From contig JBJKYB010000002.1 in the NCBI GenBank assembly GCA_045561235.1, positions 874,942 to 938,941 of the forward strand: a DNA stretch of 64,000 nucleotides, given 5' to 3'. Origin of the DNA: Gammaproteobacteria bacterium (lineage in GTDB: Bacteria > Pseudomonadota > Gammaproteobacteria > Poriferisulfidales > GCA-002705445). This document shows positions 42,499-48,945 of this stretch, one piece after another. The notes beneath the pieces were generated by a model that was given only the letters and a program-made list of their open reading frames with translations, made no database searches and had not been told where the DNA came from. The stretch's first letter is position 1. Each line of letters opens with the position of its first letter. The translations under genes were made by a program, and so were the position numbers.

Positions 42499-44033
42499 TG
42501 TATGAAGAAAAAATATTAGTTATTGATTATGGATCACAATACACACAATTGATCGCAAGAAGAATAAGAGAGAATAAGACATATTGCGAAGTATTAAAAC
42601 CAGAATTACTGAATAATGTAAAAACAGATAAAAGTATAATTGGTGTAATTCTCTCTGGCGGACCAAATTCTGTTTCAAAAGACAATCAATATGATCTCCC
42701 AGATATCCTATTTGAAAACGATATTCCTATACTAGGAATTTGTTTTGGTATGCAATTAATTTGTAAAAAATTTAATGGAAAAGTAAAGGAATCTACATCC
42801 AGAGAATACGGAAAAAGCAAATTAGACATAATACAAAATAATAAAATTTTCGAAGGTCTTGAGAACTCAATAGAGGTTTGGATGTCACACGGGGATAGTG
42901 TAATTAAGTGTCCCACAAATTTTTCTATTTTAGCTACAACAAATAAAGAGGGTCTTTCCGCAATAAAAGCAAACGACAAAGACATTTATGGAATTCAATT
43001 TCATCCAGAAGTTACTCATACACTTGATAATGGAAAAATAATTTTTAATTTTGTAAATAATATTTGTAAATCAAAAGCAGAATGGACAACAAAAAATATT
43101 ATTGCACGTCAAATAAATAGTATTAAAGAAAAAGTCAAGACTGATCATGTAATCTTAGGTTTATCAGGTGGGGTAGATTCATCTGTAGCTGCCGCAATCA
43201 TTCATAAAGCAATACAAGATCAATTAACATGTATTTTTATTGATAATGGACTTTTAAGACTAAATGAAAAAATAAAAGTACAAAATAGTTTTAAAGGTTT
43301 TAATATGAATATCAAATATGTTGACGCATCAGCTATATTTTTAGAGAGATTGAAAGGGATAACTGATCCTGAAGAAAAAAGAAAAATTATAGGAAAAACA
43401 TTCATTGATGTGTTTCAGACTGAAGCAAAAAAAATTAAAAATGTTAAGTGGTTAGCACAAGGAACAATATACCCCGATGTTATTGAATCTGCAGCTTCGT
43501 CAGATAATGCGCACTTAATAAAGTCTCACCATAATGTTGGTGGCTTGCCTAAAGACATGGATTTAAAATTATTAGAACCTCTTAGAGAGTTATTTAAAGA
43601 CGAAGTTAGGAAGTTAGGAATTGATATTGGAGTAGAACCAAAATTAATAAACAGACATCCCTTTCCAGGCCCAGGTTTGGCAGTAAGAATAATGGGTGAA
43701 GTTAAAGTTGAGTATGCAAATATTCTTAGAAAAGCAGATGACATATTTATTGAGATGCTTAATGAAAAAAAACTTTATAATAATGTCTCACAAGCTTTTA
43801 CAGTTTTTATGCCCGTAAAGACTGTTGGCGTTACAGGAGACGGGCGTTCATATGGAAATGTAGTTTCATTAAGAGCTGTAAAAACAATTGACTTTATGAC
43901 AGCAAAACCCTTTGAGTTCCCATTTAATTTTTTAGAAGAAGTTTCCACAAGAATAATTAATGAGGTTCCTGAGATATCTCGTGTCTGCTTAGATATTTCT
44001 TCTAAACCTCCAGCAACTATTGAGTGGGAATAA
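42498..44033 (+). CDS. guaA: GMP synthase (glutamine-hydrolysing)
   Basis: GATase Cys (GICFGMQL), ATP-PPase SGGVDSSV, C-terminal ...PPATIEWE. Confidence 0.96.
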
Positions 44034-44034
44034 A

Positions 44035-45498
44035 ATGATTAGCAGAGAAAAAGTTTCTCTGTTTGGAATGGTTTTGGGTATATTAATACTAATAATTTTT
44101 TTATTTACAAATCCCCCGAACGATTTAAGTAAGACAGCTTGGTTAACTGCAGGCATTGCTTTATTAATGACAGTATGGTGGGTCACAGAGGCAATACCAA
44201 TATATTTTACAGGCGTCATTCCTTTAATATTATTTCCAATTTTTAATATCTTTGACTTGAATTTAATTGTAAGTGCATACGCCCATCCTTTAGTTTTACT
44301 TTTCCTTGGAGGATTTATAATTGCCTCTGCAATGGAATCATGTGGTTTGCATAAACGCATAGCTTTAAATATTTTATCTTTTTCAGGAACAAGCCCAAGC
44401 AAAATAATTGCTGGGTTTATGATTACTACAGCTTTAATTAGTATGTGGGTAAGTAATACGGCTTCGACAATAATGATGTTACCTATAGCATTATCTGTAG
44501 TAACAATTTTTTCAAAAGAAACAAATGCTAAAGATGTAGACTTGGCGATTCCACTTTTACTTGCCATAGCATATTCTGCATCAATTGGAGGCGCTTCAAC
44601 TTTAATTGGCACTCCAACCAACATAATGTTGGCTAGTATTCTAAGTGATAGTTACAACTATGAAATAAGTTTTACTGATTGGTTAATGATAGGCTTGCCT
44701 ATTTTATTTTTTTTATTACCAGTCGTTTGGTTTTTTTTAACAAATATAAGTTTCAAGGTTTCTAAAGTAACTTCAAATGCTTTAGCAAATACAATTTTAA
44801 ATATGAAAAAAGAAAGTGGAAAATTATCATTTACAGAAAAAGTTGTGGCTACTGTATTTGTTTTAACAGCTGTATTATGGATAGTTAGAAGAAATCTAAA
44901 TGAGGCCTTCAGTCTAAACTTGAATGACACTTCTATTGGTTTATTTGGAGCTTTACTTTTGTTTTTGATTCCAACAGGAAAAAATACCAGGGCTTGTAAT
45001 TGGCAAACTGCGAATAAAATACCTTGGGGCGTTTTGCTTTTAGTGGGGGGCGGTATTGCATTATCTAGGGCATTTAATGCTTCTGGTCTAGCTTCTTGGA
45101 TAGGCAGTTTTTCTTATTACTTCTCAAACTATGAACTTTTTATATTAATAATCTTTGCAGTTGGAGTCATAATCTTTTTAACGGAGTTAAATTCTAATAC
45201 AGCAACAATTGCTACATTTGCTCCAATTTTGATCATTTTTGCTATTGGAGTGAATCAAAATCCTTTATTTTTAGTTATCCCCGCAACTATTGCAGCAAGT
45301 TGTGCTTTTATGTTGCCGATTGCTACACCGCCAAATGCTGTAATTTTTGGAAGTGGCAAAATTAAAATAAGTGATATGGTACGGGCAGGATTCTTACTAA
45401 ATATTATTTCTATACTGATAATATCTTTTGTAAGCTTTATACTTATTCAACTTGTTTTTGATATTAAGATTTATACCTTGCCAGAATGGGTAAAGTAG
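44035..45498 (+). CDS. DASS/SLC13-family (ArsB/NhaD superfamily) anion:Na+ symporter-like permease (ATG 44035; ORF track TTG 44020 overlaps guaA)
   Basis: ~12 TM segments, repeated SNTAS/TPPN-type hairpin motifs (WVSNTASTIMMLPIA, ATPPNAVIFGSG) typical of DASS transporters. Confidence 0.7.
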   Translation: MISREKVSLFGMVLGILILIIFLFTNPPNDLSKTAWLTAGIALLMTVWWVTEAIPIYFTGVIPLILFPIFNIFDLNLIVSAYAHPLVLLFLGGFIIASAMESCGLHKRIALNILSFSGTSPSKIIAGFMITTALISMWVSNTASTIMMLPIALSVVTIFSKETNAKDVDLAIPLLLAIAYSASIGGASTLIGTPTNIMLASILSDSYNYEISFTDWLMIGLPILFFLLPVVWFFLTNISFKVSKVTSNALANTILNMKKESGKLSFTEKVVATVFVLTAVLWIVRRNLNEAFSLNLNDTSIGLFGALLLFLIPTGKNTRACNWQTANKIPWGVLLLVGGGIALSRAFNASGLASWIGSFSYYFSNYELFILIIFAVGVIIFLTELNSNTATIATFAPILIIFAIGVNQNPLFLVIPATIAASCAFMLPIATPPNAVIFGSGKIKISDMVRAGFLLNIISILIISFVSFILIQLVFDIKIYTLPEWVK

Positions 45499-45598: not shown

Positions 45599-46525
45599 AT
45601 GCTTAATAATAATAATTATAATAATTTTAAAAAAATTTTATTCTTTACTTTTACCTTTTGTCTTTTTACAAATGCTTTTTCTGGCGCTGATGATGAAATT
45701 ATAATTGCTGCGGAGAAGAAAGCGCTAAATGCTACAAACGGGATATTAAGTACACTAACTTCAGATTTAACCGAAAGCTTAAAAAAATTCGAGAGTGTTA
45801 AGTATTTAGACATTAAAATTGACGTTCAAGAGCATTATAACCCTGCATTCAGTATTACAAATTTAAACAGCTTGTTTGAAAGAGATACCTCTGCATTTTT
45901 TAATCAAAATACCTTAACCCATAATAAAGATGAACAAACTATAAATTTTGGATTAGGATATAGAAAACTTTTGAATGATGATAAATTACTTTTAGGTGCT
46001 AACATTTTCTATGACTATGCTTTTGATGATAACCATAGAAGGTTGGGTTTAGGTGTTGAAGCAATATCAAGTGTATTTGATCTTAGAGGTAATTTATACG
46101 AAGCTGAAAGTGATGTAGTCACTTTAACAGATGGCTCGACGGAAGAAGCTTTAGATGGTTGGGATGCAAGACTTGATTATCATATACCAGTAGGCTTTGA
46201 TTTAAGAGTATTTGGCACATATTTTGATTGGGAAAATAGTGCGAAAACTTATGAAAATAAAGGTGAACAATACGGTTTAGCAGGACAATATGGTTTGATT
46301 AAGTTTGAAGTCGGTTATAGAGACGAAGATAATAGAAAAAAAGATGCTTTTGCAAATTTGAGCTTAGTAATTCCTCTAGGTTCTGTAGCAACATCAAATG
46401 TTGTTCCAAGGGGCATGATGGAATTGGTAAGTGTTAGAGATCAATTATATGAGCCCGTTGAGAGAGAAAATAGAATAAGAGTTGTAAAAGTTTCTGCTGG
46501 TAGTGTGATCGTAAGTGGATTTTAA
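45599..46525 (+). CDS. Outer-membrane beta-barrel protein resembling the inverse-autotransporter (intimin/invasin) beta-domain, but stand-alone (308 aa)
   Basis: Sec signal peptide; motif block LGANIFYDYAFDDNHRRLGLGVEAI...LRGNLYEAES...DGWDARLDYHIPVGF...FGTYFDWENS recalls the IAT beta-domain consensus; C-terminal aromatic (SGF). Confidence 0.5.
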   Translation: MLNNNNYNNFKKILFFTFTFCLFTNAFSGADDEIIIAAEKKALNATNGILSTLTSDLTESLKKFESVKYLDIKIDVQEHYNPAFSITNLNSLFERDTSAFFNQNTLTHNKDEQTINFGLGYRKLLNDDKLLLGANIFYDYAFDDNHRRLGLGVEAISSVFDLRGNLYEAESDVVTLTDGSTEEALDGWDARLDYHIPVGFDLRVFGTYFDWENSAKTYENKGEQYGLAGQYGLIKFEVGYRDEDNRKKDAFANLSLVIPLGSVATSNVVPRGMMELVSVRDQLYEPVERENRIRVVKVSAGSVIVSGF

Positions 46526-47640
46526 TGGGAGATACTATGTGCAAATCTGTAAAATTATTTTTATCATTATTGACTTTATTATTTTTTGTAAGCAACTCTG
46601 TTTATGCAGACACTCTTGGTGACGCGATAGATGCCGAAGGATGTGGAGATAGCGATACCGCATCTTGCTCAGGCGAATGTACCCAAACAAATAATGTTAT
46701 TACGATTGCAACTTCTGGTAATGATGATGGTGGGGTAACAGATGCAGATAGTGGTAATGTGAAAAACTTTTGTAATGAAAAGCCTGATGAATATCGTATT
46801 ACTTTTTATAAAGCGGGGTTATGTAAAATTGACCCTTTTGATTCAACTGCTACATCTAATCCAACTTCGGCTTCAAACTGTTACAATTTTTTTGTAGATG
46901 AAAGTGGCAAAGCGATAACTCTTGCTTATGATGATGATACTAGCTTAATTAGTCAAACTGGTAGCCTAATCTCAGGAAATCTTAACTTTGAATTAGGCAC
47001 GTATAATTTTGCTTACGTAATTGTTGACAATCACCTTGAAATTAAGCATCAACAAACTTTTAGTGAAGCTATGAAAGGGTATCATGTTAATGGGTCTGAT
47101 TATAGCTCAGGCGTCACATGCTGGACAAATGGTATTGTAACAACTTACACAAATGCAACAGGTGCTCAACGTGGCTATAACGCAGCTACCGTAAAATCTT
47201 ATGGTAACGATAGTAGCAGCACCTCCTCATTAGCAATGACATGCGGTGAAACTTCAGATGCTGCTCCAGTTTTTAATACAGAAATAATTGAAAATTTAGC
47301 TGCTGATCCAACGTTTCCCGATGGGAATGAAAACTCAACATTTTCAGCAATATTTGCATCAACCTATCAAACAATCACTGGAACATCAGATAAAGGTGTT
47401 GGAAAATTGTTGCAAGATGACGATTTAACTACAGCAACTAGTCATACAAATGCAGCGAGAATTTTTTATCCTGTTCAACTTGCGAACCCTCTTATTGTTA
47501 CTCCGGATATTAAAACATTTGAAATGTCTTTCGGTATATCTGGCTCTGTAAGTATTGATTTTACAACAGATGGATCTAATAATCTTATAAATTTAAAAGC
47601 TGGCGCTGATCCTTTTACAATGAAATTTAGCGCTGAATAA
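46525..47640 (+). CDS. Secreted acidic Cys/Thr/Ser-rich protein (possible surface/adhesin-like partner); ATG overlaps upstream stop (TAATG); alternative start ATG 46537
   Basis: Own Sec signal (MCKSVKLFLSLLTLLFFVSNSVYA|DT), 9 Cys, T/S/G/D-rich; GC much higher than surroundings. Confidence 0.6.
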   Translation: MGDTMCKSVKLFLSLLTLLFFVSNSVYADTLGDAIDAEGCGDSDTASCSGECTQTNNVITIATSGNDDGGVTDADSGNVKNFCNEKPDEYRITFYKAGLCKIDPFDSTATSNPTSASNCYNFFVDESGKAITLAYDDDTSLISQTGSLISGNLNFELGTYNFAYVIVDNHLEIKHQQTFSEAMKGYHVNGSDYSSGVTCWTNGIVTTYTNATGAQRGYNAATVKSYGNDSSSTSSLAMTCGETSDAAPVFNTEIIENLAADPTFPDGNENSTFSAIFASTYQTITGTSDKGVGKLLQDDDLTTATSHTNAARIFYPVQLANPLIVTPDIKTFEMSFGISGSVSIDFTTDGSNNLINLKAGADPFTMKFSAE

Positions 47641-47682: not shown

Positions 47683-48393
47683 ATGAAATATTCTAACTTG
47701 ACAATTTTTAATAATAATTTTTTAAAAAGATTCTCACATAATAAAAGATTTGATATAGCAATAAATATATTAAAAAATAATTATTTAAAGAATGATTTAA
47801 ATATCTTAGATTACGGAACAGGAAGTGGTGATTTTTTAAAAAAACTTGAACACGATATTCCAAATTTGAAGAATATTTCGGGGTATGAGCCTTTGATAGA
47901 AAGATATAGTGAGGTTTTTGAAAATGTATCAAATTATGAAAATATATTTGTTTATAAGTCTATTAATGAAATTAGACAAAAATTTGACGTAATATTTTGT
48001 ATGGAAGTTTTTGAGCATTTAAATAAAAAATTTTTATTAGAAGCTCTTGATAATATTTCTAATTTACTTTCAAAAAAAGGTGTTTGTATAGTTTCGGTTC
48101 CAATTGAGACTGGTTTTGGTGGTTTTTTAAAAAATATTGTTAGAATTCTAATAGGTGAAACTCATGAGAATGGAACCTTAAAAAACCTTTTTAAGATTTT
48201 GCTTGGAATTAAAATTGAAAGAGATGAAGACGGTGATTACATTTCTTCACACGTGGGTTTTTCTCATTATGAATTAGAGGAATTAATAAAAATAGAAAAA
48301 TTCAGAATAAAAAAGAAATATTATTCTCCTTTCTCATATTTTGGACCCCAATTAAACTCCCAAGTTTTTTTTATAATTGATAAAAAAAATTAA
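47683..48393 (+). CDS. Class I SAM-dependent methyltransferase
   Basis: Motif I LDYGTGSGDF, motif II FDVIFCMEVFEHL; very AT-rich. Confidence 0.75.
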   Translation: MKYSNLTIFNNNFLKRFSHNKRFDIAINILKNNYLKNDLNILDYGTGSGDFLKKLEHDIPNLKNISGYEPLIERYSEVFENVSNYENIFVYKSINEIRQKFDVIFCMEVFEHLNKKFLLEALDNISNLLSKKGVCIVSVPIETGFGGFLKNIVRILIGETHENGTLKNLFKILLGIKIERDEDGDYISSHVGFSHYELEELIKIEKFRIKKKYYSPFSYFGPQLNSQVFFIIDKKN

Positions 48394-48396
48394 TTC

Positions 48397-48945
48397 TTAT
48401 ATTTTGCCATCCAATCCCATTTGATAATATTTATGAACTATACTTTCTTGATTTTCTAGCAACCAATCAATACTAGGTTCATTTTTCATTGCTTTTTGAA
48501 TTGCTTGTGCAGTAGCTTTTCTGTGAATATCAAACAAAATTTTATGATCAAGATTATCGTCGTCGATTACTGATGGATTTAACCATACTGAAACTATAAT
48601 ACCTAAATCATTTGCTTTTTCTTTTGGAATATCCCCATTTCTAACAGCATCAAGAACACCGTTCGCAATAGCTCCTTGAACTGTTCCCATTAATATATTG
48701 GTATATTTTGTATCTTTGACGGTAACCTTGCTCACCATCAAAGTTGCAGGCTTAACCATAATATCTGTATTCATAATTGCTAAAACTCTTGAATGACCTT
48801 TAACTTGATCACCAAGAAGTGTCGCAAATGCTGTTCCAACAGGGCCGTCAAGCTCTCCAATCACTACTTCAGGCTCTGCTGCTGTTCCTGGAGGTCCGCC
48901 AGCAACCAAAGATTCAGCAACCCTCATTACAATTCTATCACTCAT
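48397..48945 (-). CDS. Formaldehyde-activating enzyme (Fae) family protein
   Basis: 182 aa collinear with H4MPT-dependent Fae (VAESLVAGG..., VVIGELDGPVGTAF, KPATLMVSKVTV, GAIANGVLDAVRNGDIP, EPS...); GC clearly above local background. Confidence 0.65.
   Translation of the reverse strand: MSDRIVMRVAESLVAGGPPGTAAEPEVVIGELDGPVGTAFATLLGDQVKGHSRVLAIMNTDIMVKPATLMVSKVTVKDTKYTNILMGTVQGAIANGVLDAVRNGDIPKEKANDLGIIVSVWLNPSVIDDDNLDHKILFDIHRKATAQAIQKAMKNEPSIDWLLENQESIVHKYYQMGLDGKI

What the first reader, a model, noticed from the sequence alone, without database searches (positions are those of the whole stretch)
45599..47640. Stand-alone intimin/invasin-type beta-barrel gene translationally coupled to a separately exported Cys/Thr-rich protein: a possible split (two-polypeptide) type Ve-like surface system
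The 308-aa protein at 45599-46525 has a Sec signal and a motif block that recalls the inverse-autotransporter beta-domain (FYD..F...H.RLGLG.E ... N.Y.AES ... DGWD.RL.Y..P ... Y..W.NS). It ends at the barrel with a C-terminal SGF instead of continuing into a passenger. Its stop overlaps the start of the next gene (TAATG). That gene encodes a 371-aa acidic protein with 9 Cys and long Thr/Ser/Gly/Asp/Asn-rich stretches, and it carries its own cleavable signal peptide. It is therefore not simply a frameshifted passenger. Classical inverse autotransporters are single polypeptides, so a barrel-only gene coupled to an independently secreted partner would be an undescribed architecture. It may be a docking or secretion pair, or a surface-display module. 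The partner gene has markedly higher GC than the flanks, suggesting mosaic origin. An AT-rich SAM methyltransferase follows 43 nt downstream and may or may not be part of the unit.
Basis: partly seen in the sequence, partly recalled or inferred. Interest (0 to 1): 0.75.

Follow-up and report, generated by a model that had tools for sequence, protein, structure and literature searches.

The report
Barrel-only inverse autotransporter plus partner
A stripped-down outer-membrane barrel of the intimin/invasin type is always encoded directly in front of a separately exported, cysteine-bridged protein of unknown fold, and this two-gene unit is conserved in small-genome marine bacteria including SAR11, which points to an undescribed minimal surface export or display module.

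Summary

The pair is not an accident. In 71 of 82 testable cases a barrel lies directly upstream of a partner homologue, and the rest are extra paralogues or cut contigs. No fused ORF was found among 129 partner ORFs, or among the best 150 of 634 partner clusters. The pair occurs in marine Gammaproteobacteria, SAR11 (including isolate HTCC8051) and OM43-like Nitrosomonadales.

"Undescribed architecture" is too strong, because ZirT/ZirS-type two-partner inverse autotransporters and short-extension IATs are published. A barrel-only translocator with this partner family, in these lineages, is not. The mosaic-origin idea and the methyltransferase link are not supported.

Verdict: a new variant of a known kind. 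The mechanism (export or display of the partner at the barrel) is inferred.

The parts
45599..46525 (+). Barrel-only inverse-autotransporter gene (308 aa, including the stop codon)
45599..45679 (+). Barrel signal peptide (aa 1-27, MLNNNNYNNFKKILFFTFTFCLFTNAFS)
   Evidence: K/K n-region, hydrophobic core with KD 2.44, A-F-S site. 63 of 65 family barrels are SP-like. The cleavage site is inferred.
45692..45784 (+). Predicted periplasmic alpha-helix (aa 32-62) in front of the barrel; no LysM domain
   Evidence: DSSP of the AlphaFold model. Pfam finds nothing here.
45797..46372 (+). Twelve transmembrane beta-strands (aa 67-258)
   Evidence: Strand list. Superposes on the intimin barrel.
46373..46477 (+). 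Linker (aa 259-293) with the invariant motif SV..(x)..PV.REN; equivalent to the pore-traversing linker of intimin/invasin
   Evidence: The Pfam match runs to the last profile position at residue 291. Invariant S278 V279 P286 V287 R289 E290 N291. Helical turn at 280-282. Lumenal position is inferred from the 217-residue superposition on 5G26.
46478..46522 (+). C-terminal beta-hairpin stub (aa 294-308, IRVVKVSAGSVIVSGF) where a passenger would start; always ends in G-F/Y/L
   Evidence: Strands 294-299 and 302-307. Conserved across 65 pairs. G307 invariant and F308 at least 90%.
46526..46536 (+). 11-nt intergenic spacer with Shine-Dalgarno GGAG (46528-46531)
   Evidence: Junction alignment of 16 loci. 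An 11-nt gap is among the commonest in the family.
46537..47640 (+). Partner gene (367 aa from the conserved start; the longer 371-aa reading starts at 46525)
   Evidence: ORF. Start. 56 close homologues and 634 representative clusters. No Pfam or NCBIfam hit.
46537..46608 (+). Partner signal peptide (MCKSVKLFLSLLTLLFFVSNSVYA | D)
   Evidence: Hydrophobic core with KD 2.73, V-Y-A site. 65 of 65 family members are SP-like and none has a lipobox. The cleavage site is inferred.
46609..46788 (+). Low-confidence, Cys-rich, acidic N-terminal region of the mature partner (371-numbering aa 29-88; Cys40, 48, 52, 83)
   Evidence: pLDDT below 50 for 20-50 and 61-82. C52 and C83 are invariant. C40 and C48 occur only in the gammaproteobacterial type.
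46789..47634 (+). All-beta core of the partner (aa 89-370) with invariant Cys100, 119, 199, 240
47596..47619 (+). Most conserved partner motif, K-x-G-A-D-P-F-T (aa 358-365)
   Evidence: Invariant K358 G360 A361 D362; nearly invariant P363 F364 T365.

Best explanation
This is a two-gene, type Ve-derived outer-membrane module.

Gene 1 makes a minimal inverse-autotransporter barrel: signal peptide, one periplasmic helix, a 12-stranded barrel, the conserved pore linker, and a 15-residue terminal hairpin that should sit at the outer mouth of the barrel. It has no passenger of its own.

Gene 2 is translated from the same transcript, 11 nt downstream. It makes the functional equivalent of the passenger as a separate polypeptide. 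That protein is exported by Sec, probably acquires three (here four) disulfides in the periplasm, and is then delivered to the cell surface, or held there, by its cognate barrel. This is analogous to ZirT exporting ZirS in Salmonella.

Shown here: the family assignment and fold of the barrel, the absence of a passenger, independent signal peptides, family-wide gene coupling, and the absence of fusions.

Inferred: that barrel and partner interact physically, that the partner ends up outside the outer membrane, and that the barrel is the conduit or the dock.
For: Barrel identity:
- Pfam IAT_beta 125 bits, matched to the last profile position.
- 12 strands, linker and hairpin in the model.

No passenger:
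- The protein ends 17 aa after the Pfam domain.
- All 120 listed barrel homologues are 217-341 aa.
- The stub and linker are among the most conserved parts.

Partner exported independently:
- 65 of 65 have signal peptides and none has a lipobox.
- Mature partners carry mostly 6 or 8 Cys, while 59 of 65 barrels have none.

Coupling:
- 71 of 82 partner genes have a barrel within -44 to +15 nt upstream.
- This holds at 25-30% partner identity, in three distant profile-only members in unrelated neighbourhoods, and in ten genome loci from three proteobacterial classes.
- Barrel and partner divergence are correlated (Spearman 0.77), and the partner diverges faster. That is what would be expected of an exposed cargo.
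- Some clusters have one barrel with two to four partner paralogues. This fits a reusable translocator or dock.

Precedent: ZirT-dependent secretion of Sec-exported ZirS (PMC2270342), and the two-partner IAT model (PMC4943183).
Against: - There is no direct evidence of interaction or surface exposure. I could not run a complex prediction, and the structure tool gives no contacts.
- The barrel keeps its own, strongly conserved linker. In intimin and invasin this linker fills the 12-stranded pore, so a folded, disulfide-bonded 35-kDa protein cannot simply pass through. Plug displacement or BAM-assisted co-assembly has to be assumed.
- Unlike ZirT, the barrel has no Ig-like domains to bind its substrate, and the partner shows no similarity to IAT passengers.
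- In SAR11-type clusters, partners with a basic ...WR tail always co-occur with a second predicted outer-membrane protein (DUF2860-like), a FecR-domain protein and another secreted protein. Other machinery may therefore be involved in at least that branch.
Confidence: 0.45

Rival explanations
1. Periplasmic complex. The partner never crosses the outer membrane. It binds the periplasmic helix or periplasmic turns of the barrel protein and acts as an envelope-structural, tethering or sensing pair, with the plugged barrel serving only as a membrane anchor.
For: The pore linker is invariant, so the barrel is probably permanently plugged. The partner's conserved even-numbered cysteines point to folding and oxidation in the periplasm. 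The barrel has a 30-residue periplasmic helix of unknown role. A FecR-domain periplasmic protein accompanies the SAR11-type clusters.
Against: The partner diverges clearly faster than the barrel and forms multi-paralogue arrays. That pattern is more typical of exposed proteins. The conserved free C-terminal hairpin lies on the predicted extracellular side and has no obvious role in this model. The only experimental precedent for an IAT barrel with a downstream Sec-dependent protein is secretion (PMC2270342).
Confidence: 0.2
2. Surface dock without translocation. The partner reaches the surface by another route, such as type II secretion or the DUF2860/FecR accessory proteins. The barrel's exposed C-terminal hairpin only anchors it by beta-strand augmentation.
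For: The terminal hairpin and the G-F end are invariant yet have no domain attached. Tail-bearing partners co-occur strictly with a second predicted outer-membrane protein. A folded, disulfide-rich cargo is hard to pass through a 12-stranded barrel.
Against: The window's genome segment and all tail-less loci carry the pair alone, with no accessory genes next to it. The pair therefore seems to be self-sufficient there. No other secretion genes are linked in any of about 100 loci.
Confidence: 0.17
3. Functionally independent neighbours. The barrel is a relic or structural outer-membrane protein working on its own, and the partner is an unrelated secreted protein that merely shares an operon.
For: No interaction has been shown. 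The partner has no recognisable link to type V passengers.
Against: Adjacency with a gap of at most 15 nt is kept across Alpha-, Beta- and Gammaproteobacteria, at 25% partner identity and in unrelated genomic neighbourhoods. Barrel subtypes also pair with matching partner subtypes. This is hard to explain without functional dependence.
Confidence: 0.08
4. Artefact. The locus is a classical inverse autotransporter broken by a frameshift or assembly error.
For: The two ORFs abut and are in different frames.
Against: The partner has its own signal peptide and ribosome-binding site. No ORF hits both profiles among 129 partner and 82 barrel ORFs. The best 150 of 634 partner clusters are all 416 aa or shorter. 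The identical proteins occur on several independent contigs and assemblies.
Confidence: 0.01

Closest known systems
ZirT/ZirS(/ZirU) of Salmonella, and the proposed 'two-partner inverse autotransporters' (SinH/SinI, Yfr4/Rat-like; Gal-Mor 2008 PMC2270342; Heinz 2016 PMC4943183)
   Same: An IAT-type outer-membrane barrel gene is followed on the same strand by a gene for a barrel-less protein with its own Sec signal. For ZirS, secretion was shown to depend on ZirT. Some operons hold several substrates per barrel, as in some clusters here.
   Different: ZirT, SinH and Yfr4 keep their own Ig-like passenger, and their partners resemble that passenger. Here the barrel has only a 17-residue stub, and the partner is not Ig-like by sequence or fold search. 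The known hosts are enteric Gammaproteobacteria; here they are free-living marine oligotrophs, including Alphaproteobacteria.
Classical inverse autotransporters (type Ve): intimin, invasin, FdeC
   Different: No passenger in the same polypeptide, no LysM domain, total length 308 aa. The presumed cargo is a separate gene product.
IAT clade with 'very short C-terminal extension' (Heinz 2016, Figs 3-4) and short-passenger IATs such as IatA (Goh 2019, PMC6714894)
   Same: An IAT barrel with little or nothing attached. [quoted passage not shown]
   Different: Those papers describe no conserved partner gene for this clade. Goh et al. describe the short extensions as Ig-like domains, which a 17-residue hairpin is not. 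I could not check whether this marine family was in their data set, because the supplementary tables are not held.
Two-partner secretion, type Vb (TpsB/TpsA, e.g. FhaC/FHA)
   Same: The logic of one outer-membrane barrel plus one adjacent, separately Sec-exported cargo.
   Different: TpsB is a 16-stranded Omp85 barrel with POTRA domains, and TpsA carries a TPS domain. Neither is present here.
Slam / type XI secretion (DUF560 barrel plus adjacent surface lipoprotein)
   Same: A barrel gene sits next to the gene of the protein it places on the surface.
   Different: A different barrel family, and its substrates are lipoproteins. None of 65 partners has a lipobox.

Membership tests
Inverse autotransporter beta-domain family (Pfam PF11924, type Ve) | Sequence match to the IAT_beta profile above the curated threshold | tested here: met
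   125.4 bits against a 22.3-bit cutoff, E 4e-36, profile 26-279 of 279. Weaker partial hits to the NCBIfam SinH, Inv and YchO N-terminal models.
Inverse autotransporter beta-domain family (Pfam PF11924, type Ve) | 12-stranded outer-membrane beta-barrel with the intimin/invasin fold | tested here: met
Inverse autotransporter beta-domain family (Pfam PF11924, type Ve) | Linker after the last strand that runs back through the pore | tested here: inconclusive
   The linker sequence is present and invariant (PV.REN), with a helical turn. 217 aligned residues exceed the 192-residue strand region, so part of the linker superposes on intimin's.
Classical inverse autotransporter (intimin/invasin/FdeC architecture) | C-terminal passenger (Big/Ig-like, lectin-like domains) on the same polypeptide | tested here: not met
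   The protein ends 17 residues after the Pfam domain. All listed homologues are 341 aa or shorter.
Two-partner inverse autotransporters (ZirT/ZirS type) | IAT barrel gene followed, same strand, by a gene for a barrel-less protein with a Sec signal | tested here: met
   11-nt spacer. 71 of 82 family-wide. 65 of 65 partners have signal peptides.
Two-partner inverse autotransporters (ZirT/ZirS type) | Translocator carries its own IgSF domains, and the partner resembles them | tested here: not met
Two-partner inverse autotransporters (ZirT/ZirS type) | Barrel-dependent export of the partner | not testable with these tools
   Needs secretion or surface-exposure assays with and without the barrel.
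Type Vb two-partner secretion (TpsB/TpsA) | Omp85/POTRA transporter and a TPS domain on the cargo | tested here: not met
   Pfam reports only IAT_beta for the barrel and nothing for the partner.
Slam / type XI secretion | DUF560 barrel and a lipoprotein substrate | tested here: not met
   The barrel is IAT_beta. None of 65 partners has a lipobox.

The most novel reading that the evidence does not exclude
A minimal, self-sufficient two-polypeptide branch of type V secretion. A passenger-less 12-stranded inverse-autotransporter barrel exports or displays a separately encoded, disulfide-bonded protein with a previously unseen fold. The module is a conserved, paralogue-expanding cell-surface feature of the most abundant marine bacteria (SAR11, OM43-like lineages and small-genome Gammaproteobacteria). 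It is therefore a candidate for a major surface antigen or phage or grazer interface, and possibly close to the ancestral state of the intimin/invasin family.
Probability: 0.35. Interest if true: 0.8.

Novelty: new variant of a known kind. Interest (0 to 1): 0.62.

Why it matters
For type V secretion: how an inverse-autotransporter barrel could handle a separate substrate is unresolved, and ZirT/ZirS is the only experimental case. A natural system reduced to a bare barrel plus one cargo would be the simplest model in which to test plug displacement against BAM-assisted co-export. It also bears on whether barrel-only proteins are the ancestral form of the family.

For marine microbiology: genomes of about 1-1.4 Mb keep this pair, and SAR11 expands it to two barrels and five partner paralogues within 12 kb in isolate HTCC8051. 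That implies strong selection. The partner evolves faster than the barrel, as surface antigens do. Very little is known about proteinaceous surface structures of SAR11-type cells, so a named, testable candidate is useful. It also extends the IAT family, described as almost exclusive to Gammaproteobacteria, into Alpha- and Betaproteobacteria.

Tried and rejected
- Barrel-linker-partner complex prediction: I prepared 37 paired sequences but did not submit them.
- The AlphaFold-database fold library was unavailable.
- Sequence alignment of the barrel to crystallised intimin and invasin covers only the central strands, not the C-terminus.
- Promoter and terminator scans gave counts equal to shuffles, and the partner-methyltransferase spacer does not fold (z 0.78).
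- The methyltransferase as part of the unit was rejected. It is present only in the window and L032, and the methyltransferases beside other pairs are unrelated.
- Mosaic or horizontal origin of the partner was rejected on GC3 and synteny.
- A lipoprotein partner was rejected.
- Literature searches linking SAR11, Pelagibacter or SAR86 with intimin, invasin or inverse autotransporters, and for passenger-less IATs, found nothing. The supplementary tables of Heinz 2016 are not held.
Full report
**1. What is in the sequence**

The first runs 45599-46525 (+), is 308 aa and ends ...SAGSVIVSGF. The second is read from 46525 (371 aa) to 47640. An AT-rich methyltransferase gene follows 42 nt later (47683-48393). 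A formaldehyde-activating enzyme gene lies on the other strand (48397-48945). Upstream are guaB, guaA and a DASS-family transporter gene.

Exact-sequence look-up shows the window comes from an NCBI MAG labelled only 'Gammaproteobacteria bacterium', on a 1.06-Mb contig. There the barrel is already named 'inverse autotransporter beta domain-containing protein', and the partner is a 367-aa hypothetical protein.

**2. The barrel**

- Family: Pfam IAT_beta (PF11924) matches at E 4e-36 and 125 bits against a 22.3-bit cutoff. The match runs from profile position 26 to the very last position, 279, at residue 291. No MipA/OmpV/OmpW or other outer-membrane family appears even at E<=1. NCBIfam gives partial hits to the N-terminal (barrel) parts of SinH, Inv, YchO and others.
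- Model: built from 31 sequences, pLDDT 78.7 and pTM 0.71. It has a signal-peptide helix, one periplasmic helix (32-62), twelve strands (67-258), a linker (259-293) with a helical turn, and a terminal beta-hairpin (294-299 and 302-307).
- Linker position: the strand region is only 192 residues, so the 217-residue superposition must include part of the linker. I could not inspect coordinates, so the position of the linker inside the pore is inferred.
- Conservation: the linker motif (S278 V279 ... P286 V287 x R289 E290 N291) and the terminal G307-F308 are invariant or nearly so. In 65 non-identical family members the protein always stops about 18 residues after REN, ending in G-F, G-Y or G-L.
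- Homologues: all 120 listed barrel homologues are 217-341 aa.

This is therefore a bona fide type Ve beta-domain that ends exactly where a passenger would begin.

**3. The partner**

- Families: no Pfam, NCBIfam or PHROGs family matches.
- Homologues: there are 56 close homologues. A profile search of 1.84 billion representatives finds 634 clusters (243 at E<=1e-10), and every one of the best 150 is 416 aa or shorter. Every source that names a member calls it a hypothetical protein.
- Sequence features: the alignment shows six invariant cysteines (C52, 83, 100, 119, 199, 240), two further cysteines specific to the gammaproteobacterial type (C40, C48), and a highly conserved C-terminal K-x-G-A-D-P-F-T motif.
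- Export: all 65 non-redundant partners have a Sec-type signal peptide and none has a lipobox. Mature partners contain mostly 6 or 8 cysteines, whereas 59 of 65 barrels contain none. The mature window protein is acidic (pI 4.1) and rich in Thr, Ser, Ala, Asp and Gly.
- Model: pLDDT 70.9 and pTM 0.72, with a confident all-beta core (residues 89-370) behind a low-confidence Cys-rich N-terminal segment.

**4. Corrections to the observation**

- Start codon: the TAATG overlap is present but not conserved. In 13 close relatives the partner starts at an ATG 11-12 nt after the barrel stop, behind a conserved GGAG. The window has the same ATG at 46537 with GGAG at 46528-46531, and PGAP chose that start.
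- GC content: the partner's GC (0.358) exceeds the window mean (0.314), but its GC3 (0.204) sits within the range of its neighbours (0.156-0.229), and guaB and fae have similar overall GC. The excess reflects a Gly/Ala/Thr/Asp-rich composition, not foreign origin.
- Synteny: in the window's lineage the locus is stably syntenic as guaA, sometimes the DASS transporter gene, barrel, partner, fae, tadA and an MltF-like gene. The methyltransferase is present only in the window and one other locus. Methyltransferases next to more distant pairs are unrelated to it. The methyltransferase is therefore an insertion, not part of the unit.
- Transcription signals: the promoter and terminator scans were uninformative in this AT-rich DNA.

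**5. Is the pairing meaningful?**

Yes, and this is the main result.

- Across the window and 102 fetched loci I found 129 partner ORFs. Of the 82 with at least 950 nt of upstream sequence, 71 have an IAT barrel directly upstream on the same strand, with a gap of -44 to +15 nt. The remaining 11 are extra partner paralogues in clusters that contain a barrel, or lie on short contigs.
- No ORF matches both profiles.
- The pairing holds at 25-30% partner identity.
- It also holds for three distant members known only from the profile search, each in an unrelated genomic neighbourhood.
- Among genomes, the pair occurs in gammaproteobacterial MAGs, in Pelagibacteraceae including the isolate genome Ca. 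Pelagibacter ubique HTCC8051, and in Nitrosomonadales/'Methylobacillus' (OM43-like) genomes.
- Barrel and partner divergence are correlated (Spearman 0.77), and the partner diverges faster. For example, barrels at 57% identity go with partners at 44%.
- Barrel subtypes go with matching partner subtypes.
- Several clusters have one barrel with two to four partner paralogues.

**6. How it most likely works**

The best-supported reading is a two-polypeptide derivative of type Ve secretion. A minimal barrel is inserted in the outer membrane with its hairpin stub at the outer mouth. A cognate cargo is exported by Sec, oxidised in the periplasm, and delivered to the surface or held there by the barrel.

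The experimental precedent is ZirT/ZirS, where a Sec-dependent protein encoded downstream of an IAT-type barrel is secreted in a barrel-dependent way (PMC2270342). Heinz et al. generalised this to 'two-partner inverse autotransporters' and proposed reversible withdrawal of the plug (PMC4943183).

Shown here are the identities, the architecture and the coupling. The interaction, the topology of the partner and the route across the membrane are inferred.

The main difficulty is that the barrel's own linker is invariant and should fill the pore, while the cargo is a folded, disulfide-bonded 35-kDa protein. I therefore keep three rivals alive: a periplasmic complex (0.2), a surface dock without translocation (0.17) and functional independence (0.08). 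A frameshift artefact is excluded.

**7. Comparison with what is known**

Membership of the IAT beta-domain family is met by sequence and by fold. Membership of the classical intimin/invasin architecture fails on the passenger.

The ZirT/ZirS-type definition is met for gene arrangement. It fails on the translocator's own Ig-like domains and on partner-passenger similarity.

[quoted passage not shown] Goh et al. say short passengers are not uncommon and that IATs are almost exclusively gammaproteobacterial. Neither paper describes a conserved partner for such barrels.

I found no paper connecting SAR11, SAR86 or Pelagibacter with this family, and none on passenger-less IATs. These searches cover open-access full text only.

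**8. Verdict**

It is a new variant of a known kind rather than a categorically new architecture. The interest lies in three things: the minimality of the system, the new partner family and fold, and its conservation and expansion in the ocean's dominant streamlined bacteria.

Noticed in passing
L001 3741-13164; L018 796-11774 (Ca. P. ubique HTCC8051); L004 2762-7814, and about 25 further loci: In SAR11-type loci, partner paralogues ending in a basic tail (...TKT[KR]R.RG.WR) always sit in a larger cluster: [partner] barrel partner [partner], then a 437-441-aa TPR-like + DUF2860-like predicted outer-membrane protein, a 191-aa FecR-domain protein, a 347-351-aa secreted protein, and often one or two further barrel-partner pairs. 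None of 34 tail-less partners is followed by this trio. The tail may be a sorting or anchoring signal.
   Followed up: partly
window 47683-48393: A class I SAM methyltransferase gene with the lowest GC in the region (0.232) is inserted between the partner and fae. It is present only in the window and L032 among about 17 syntenic loci, so it looks like a strain-variable insertion. Its 90% cluster is oddly mixed with proteins that JGI names branched-chain amino acid ABC ATP-binding proteins.
   Followed up: partly
window 48397-48945 (-): A formaldehyde-activating enzyme (Fae, Pfam 201 bits) is conserved next to the pair throughout this small-genome gammaproteobacterial lineage. This suggests tetrahydromethanopterin-linked C1 metabolism in a genome segment of about 1.06 Mb.
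   Followed up: no
window 44020-45498: The DASS-family (Na/sulfate or dicarboxylate symporter) gene between guaA and the barrel is present in only some syntenic relatives (for example L013, L026, L029, L030, L032). Its TTG start overlaps the end of guaA by 14 nt.
   Followed up: no
L007 2239-2691: A 150-aa ORF downstream of a barrel-partner pair keeps only the N-terminal (C..F.DE.KIRFYKVGIC) and C-terminal (...APFQIIFTSK) conserved segments of the partner family and has no signal peptide. It is either a decayed paralogue or a mini-version lacking the middle of the fold.
   Followed up: no
L009-L012, about 900-1700 nt upstream of the barrel: In one gammaproteobacterial group the pair lies just downstream of a proteorhodopsin gene, with an unrelated 206-aa methyltransferase on the opposite strand in between. 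The neighbourhood is otherwise conserved: adenylosuccinate lyase, M24 peptidase, SfsA, then NAD kinase and an FGGY kinase.
   Followed up: no
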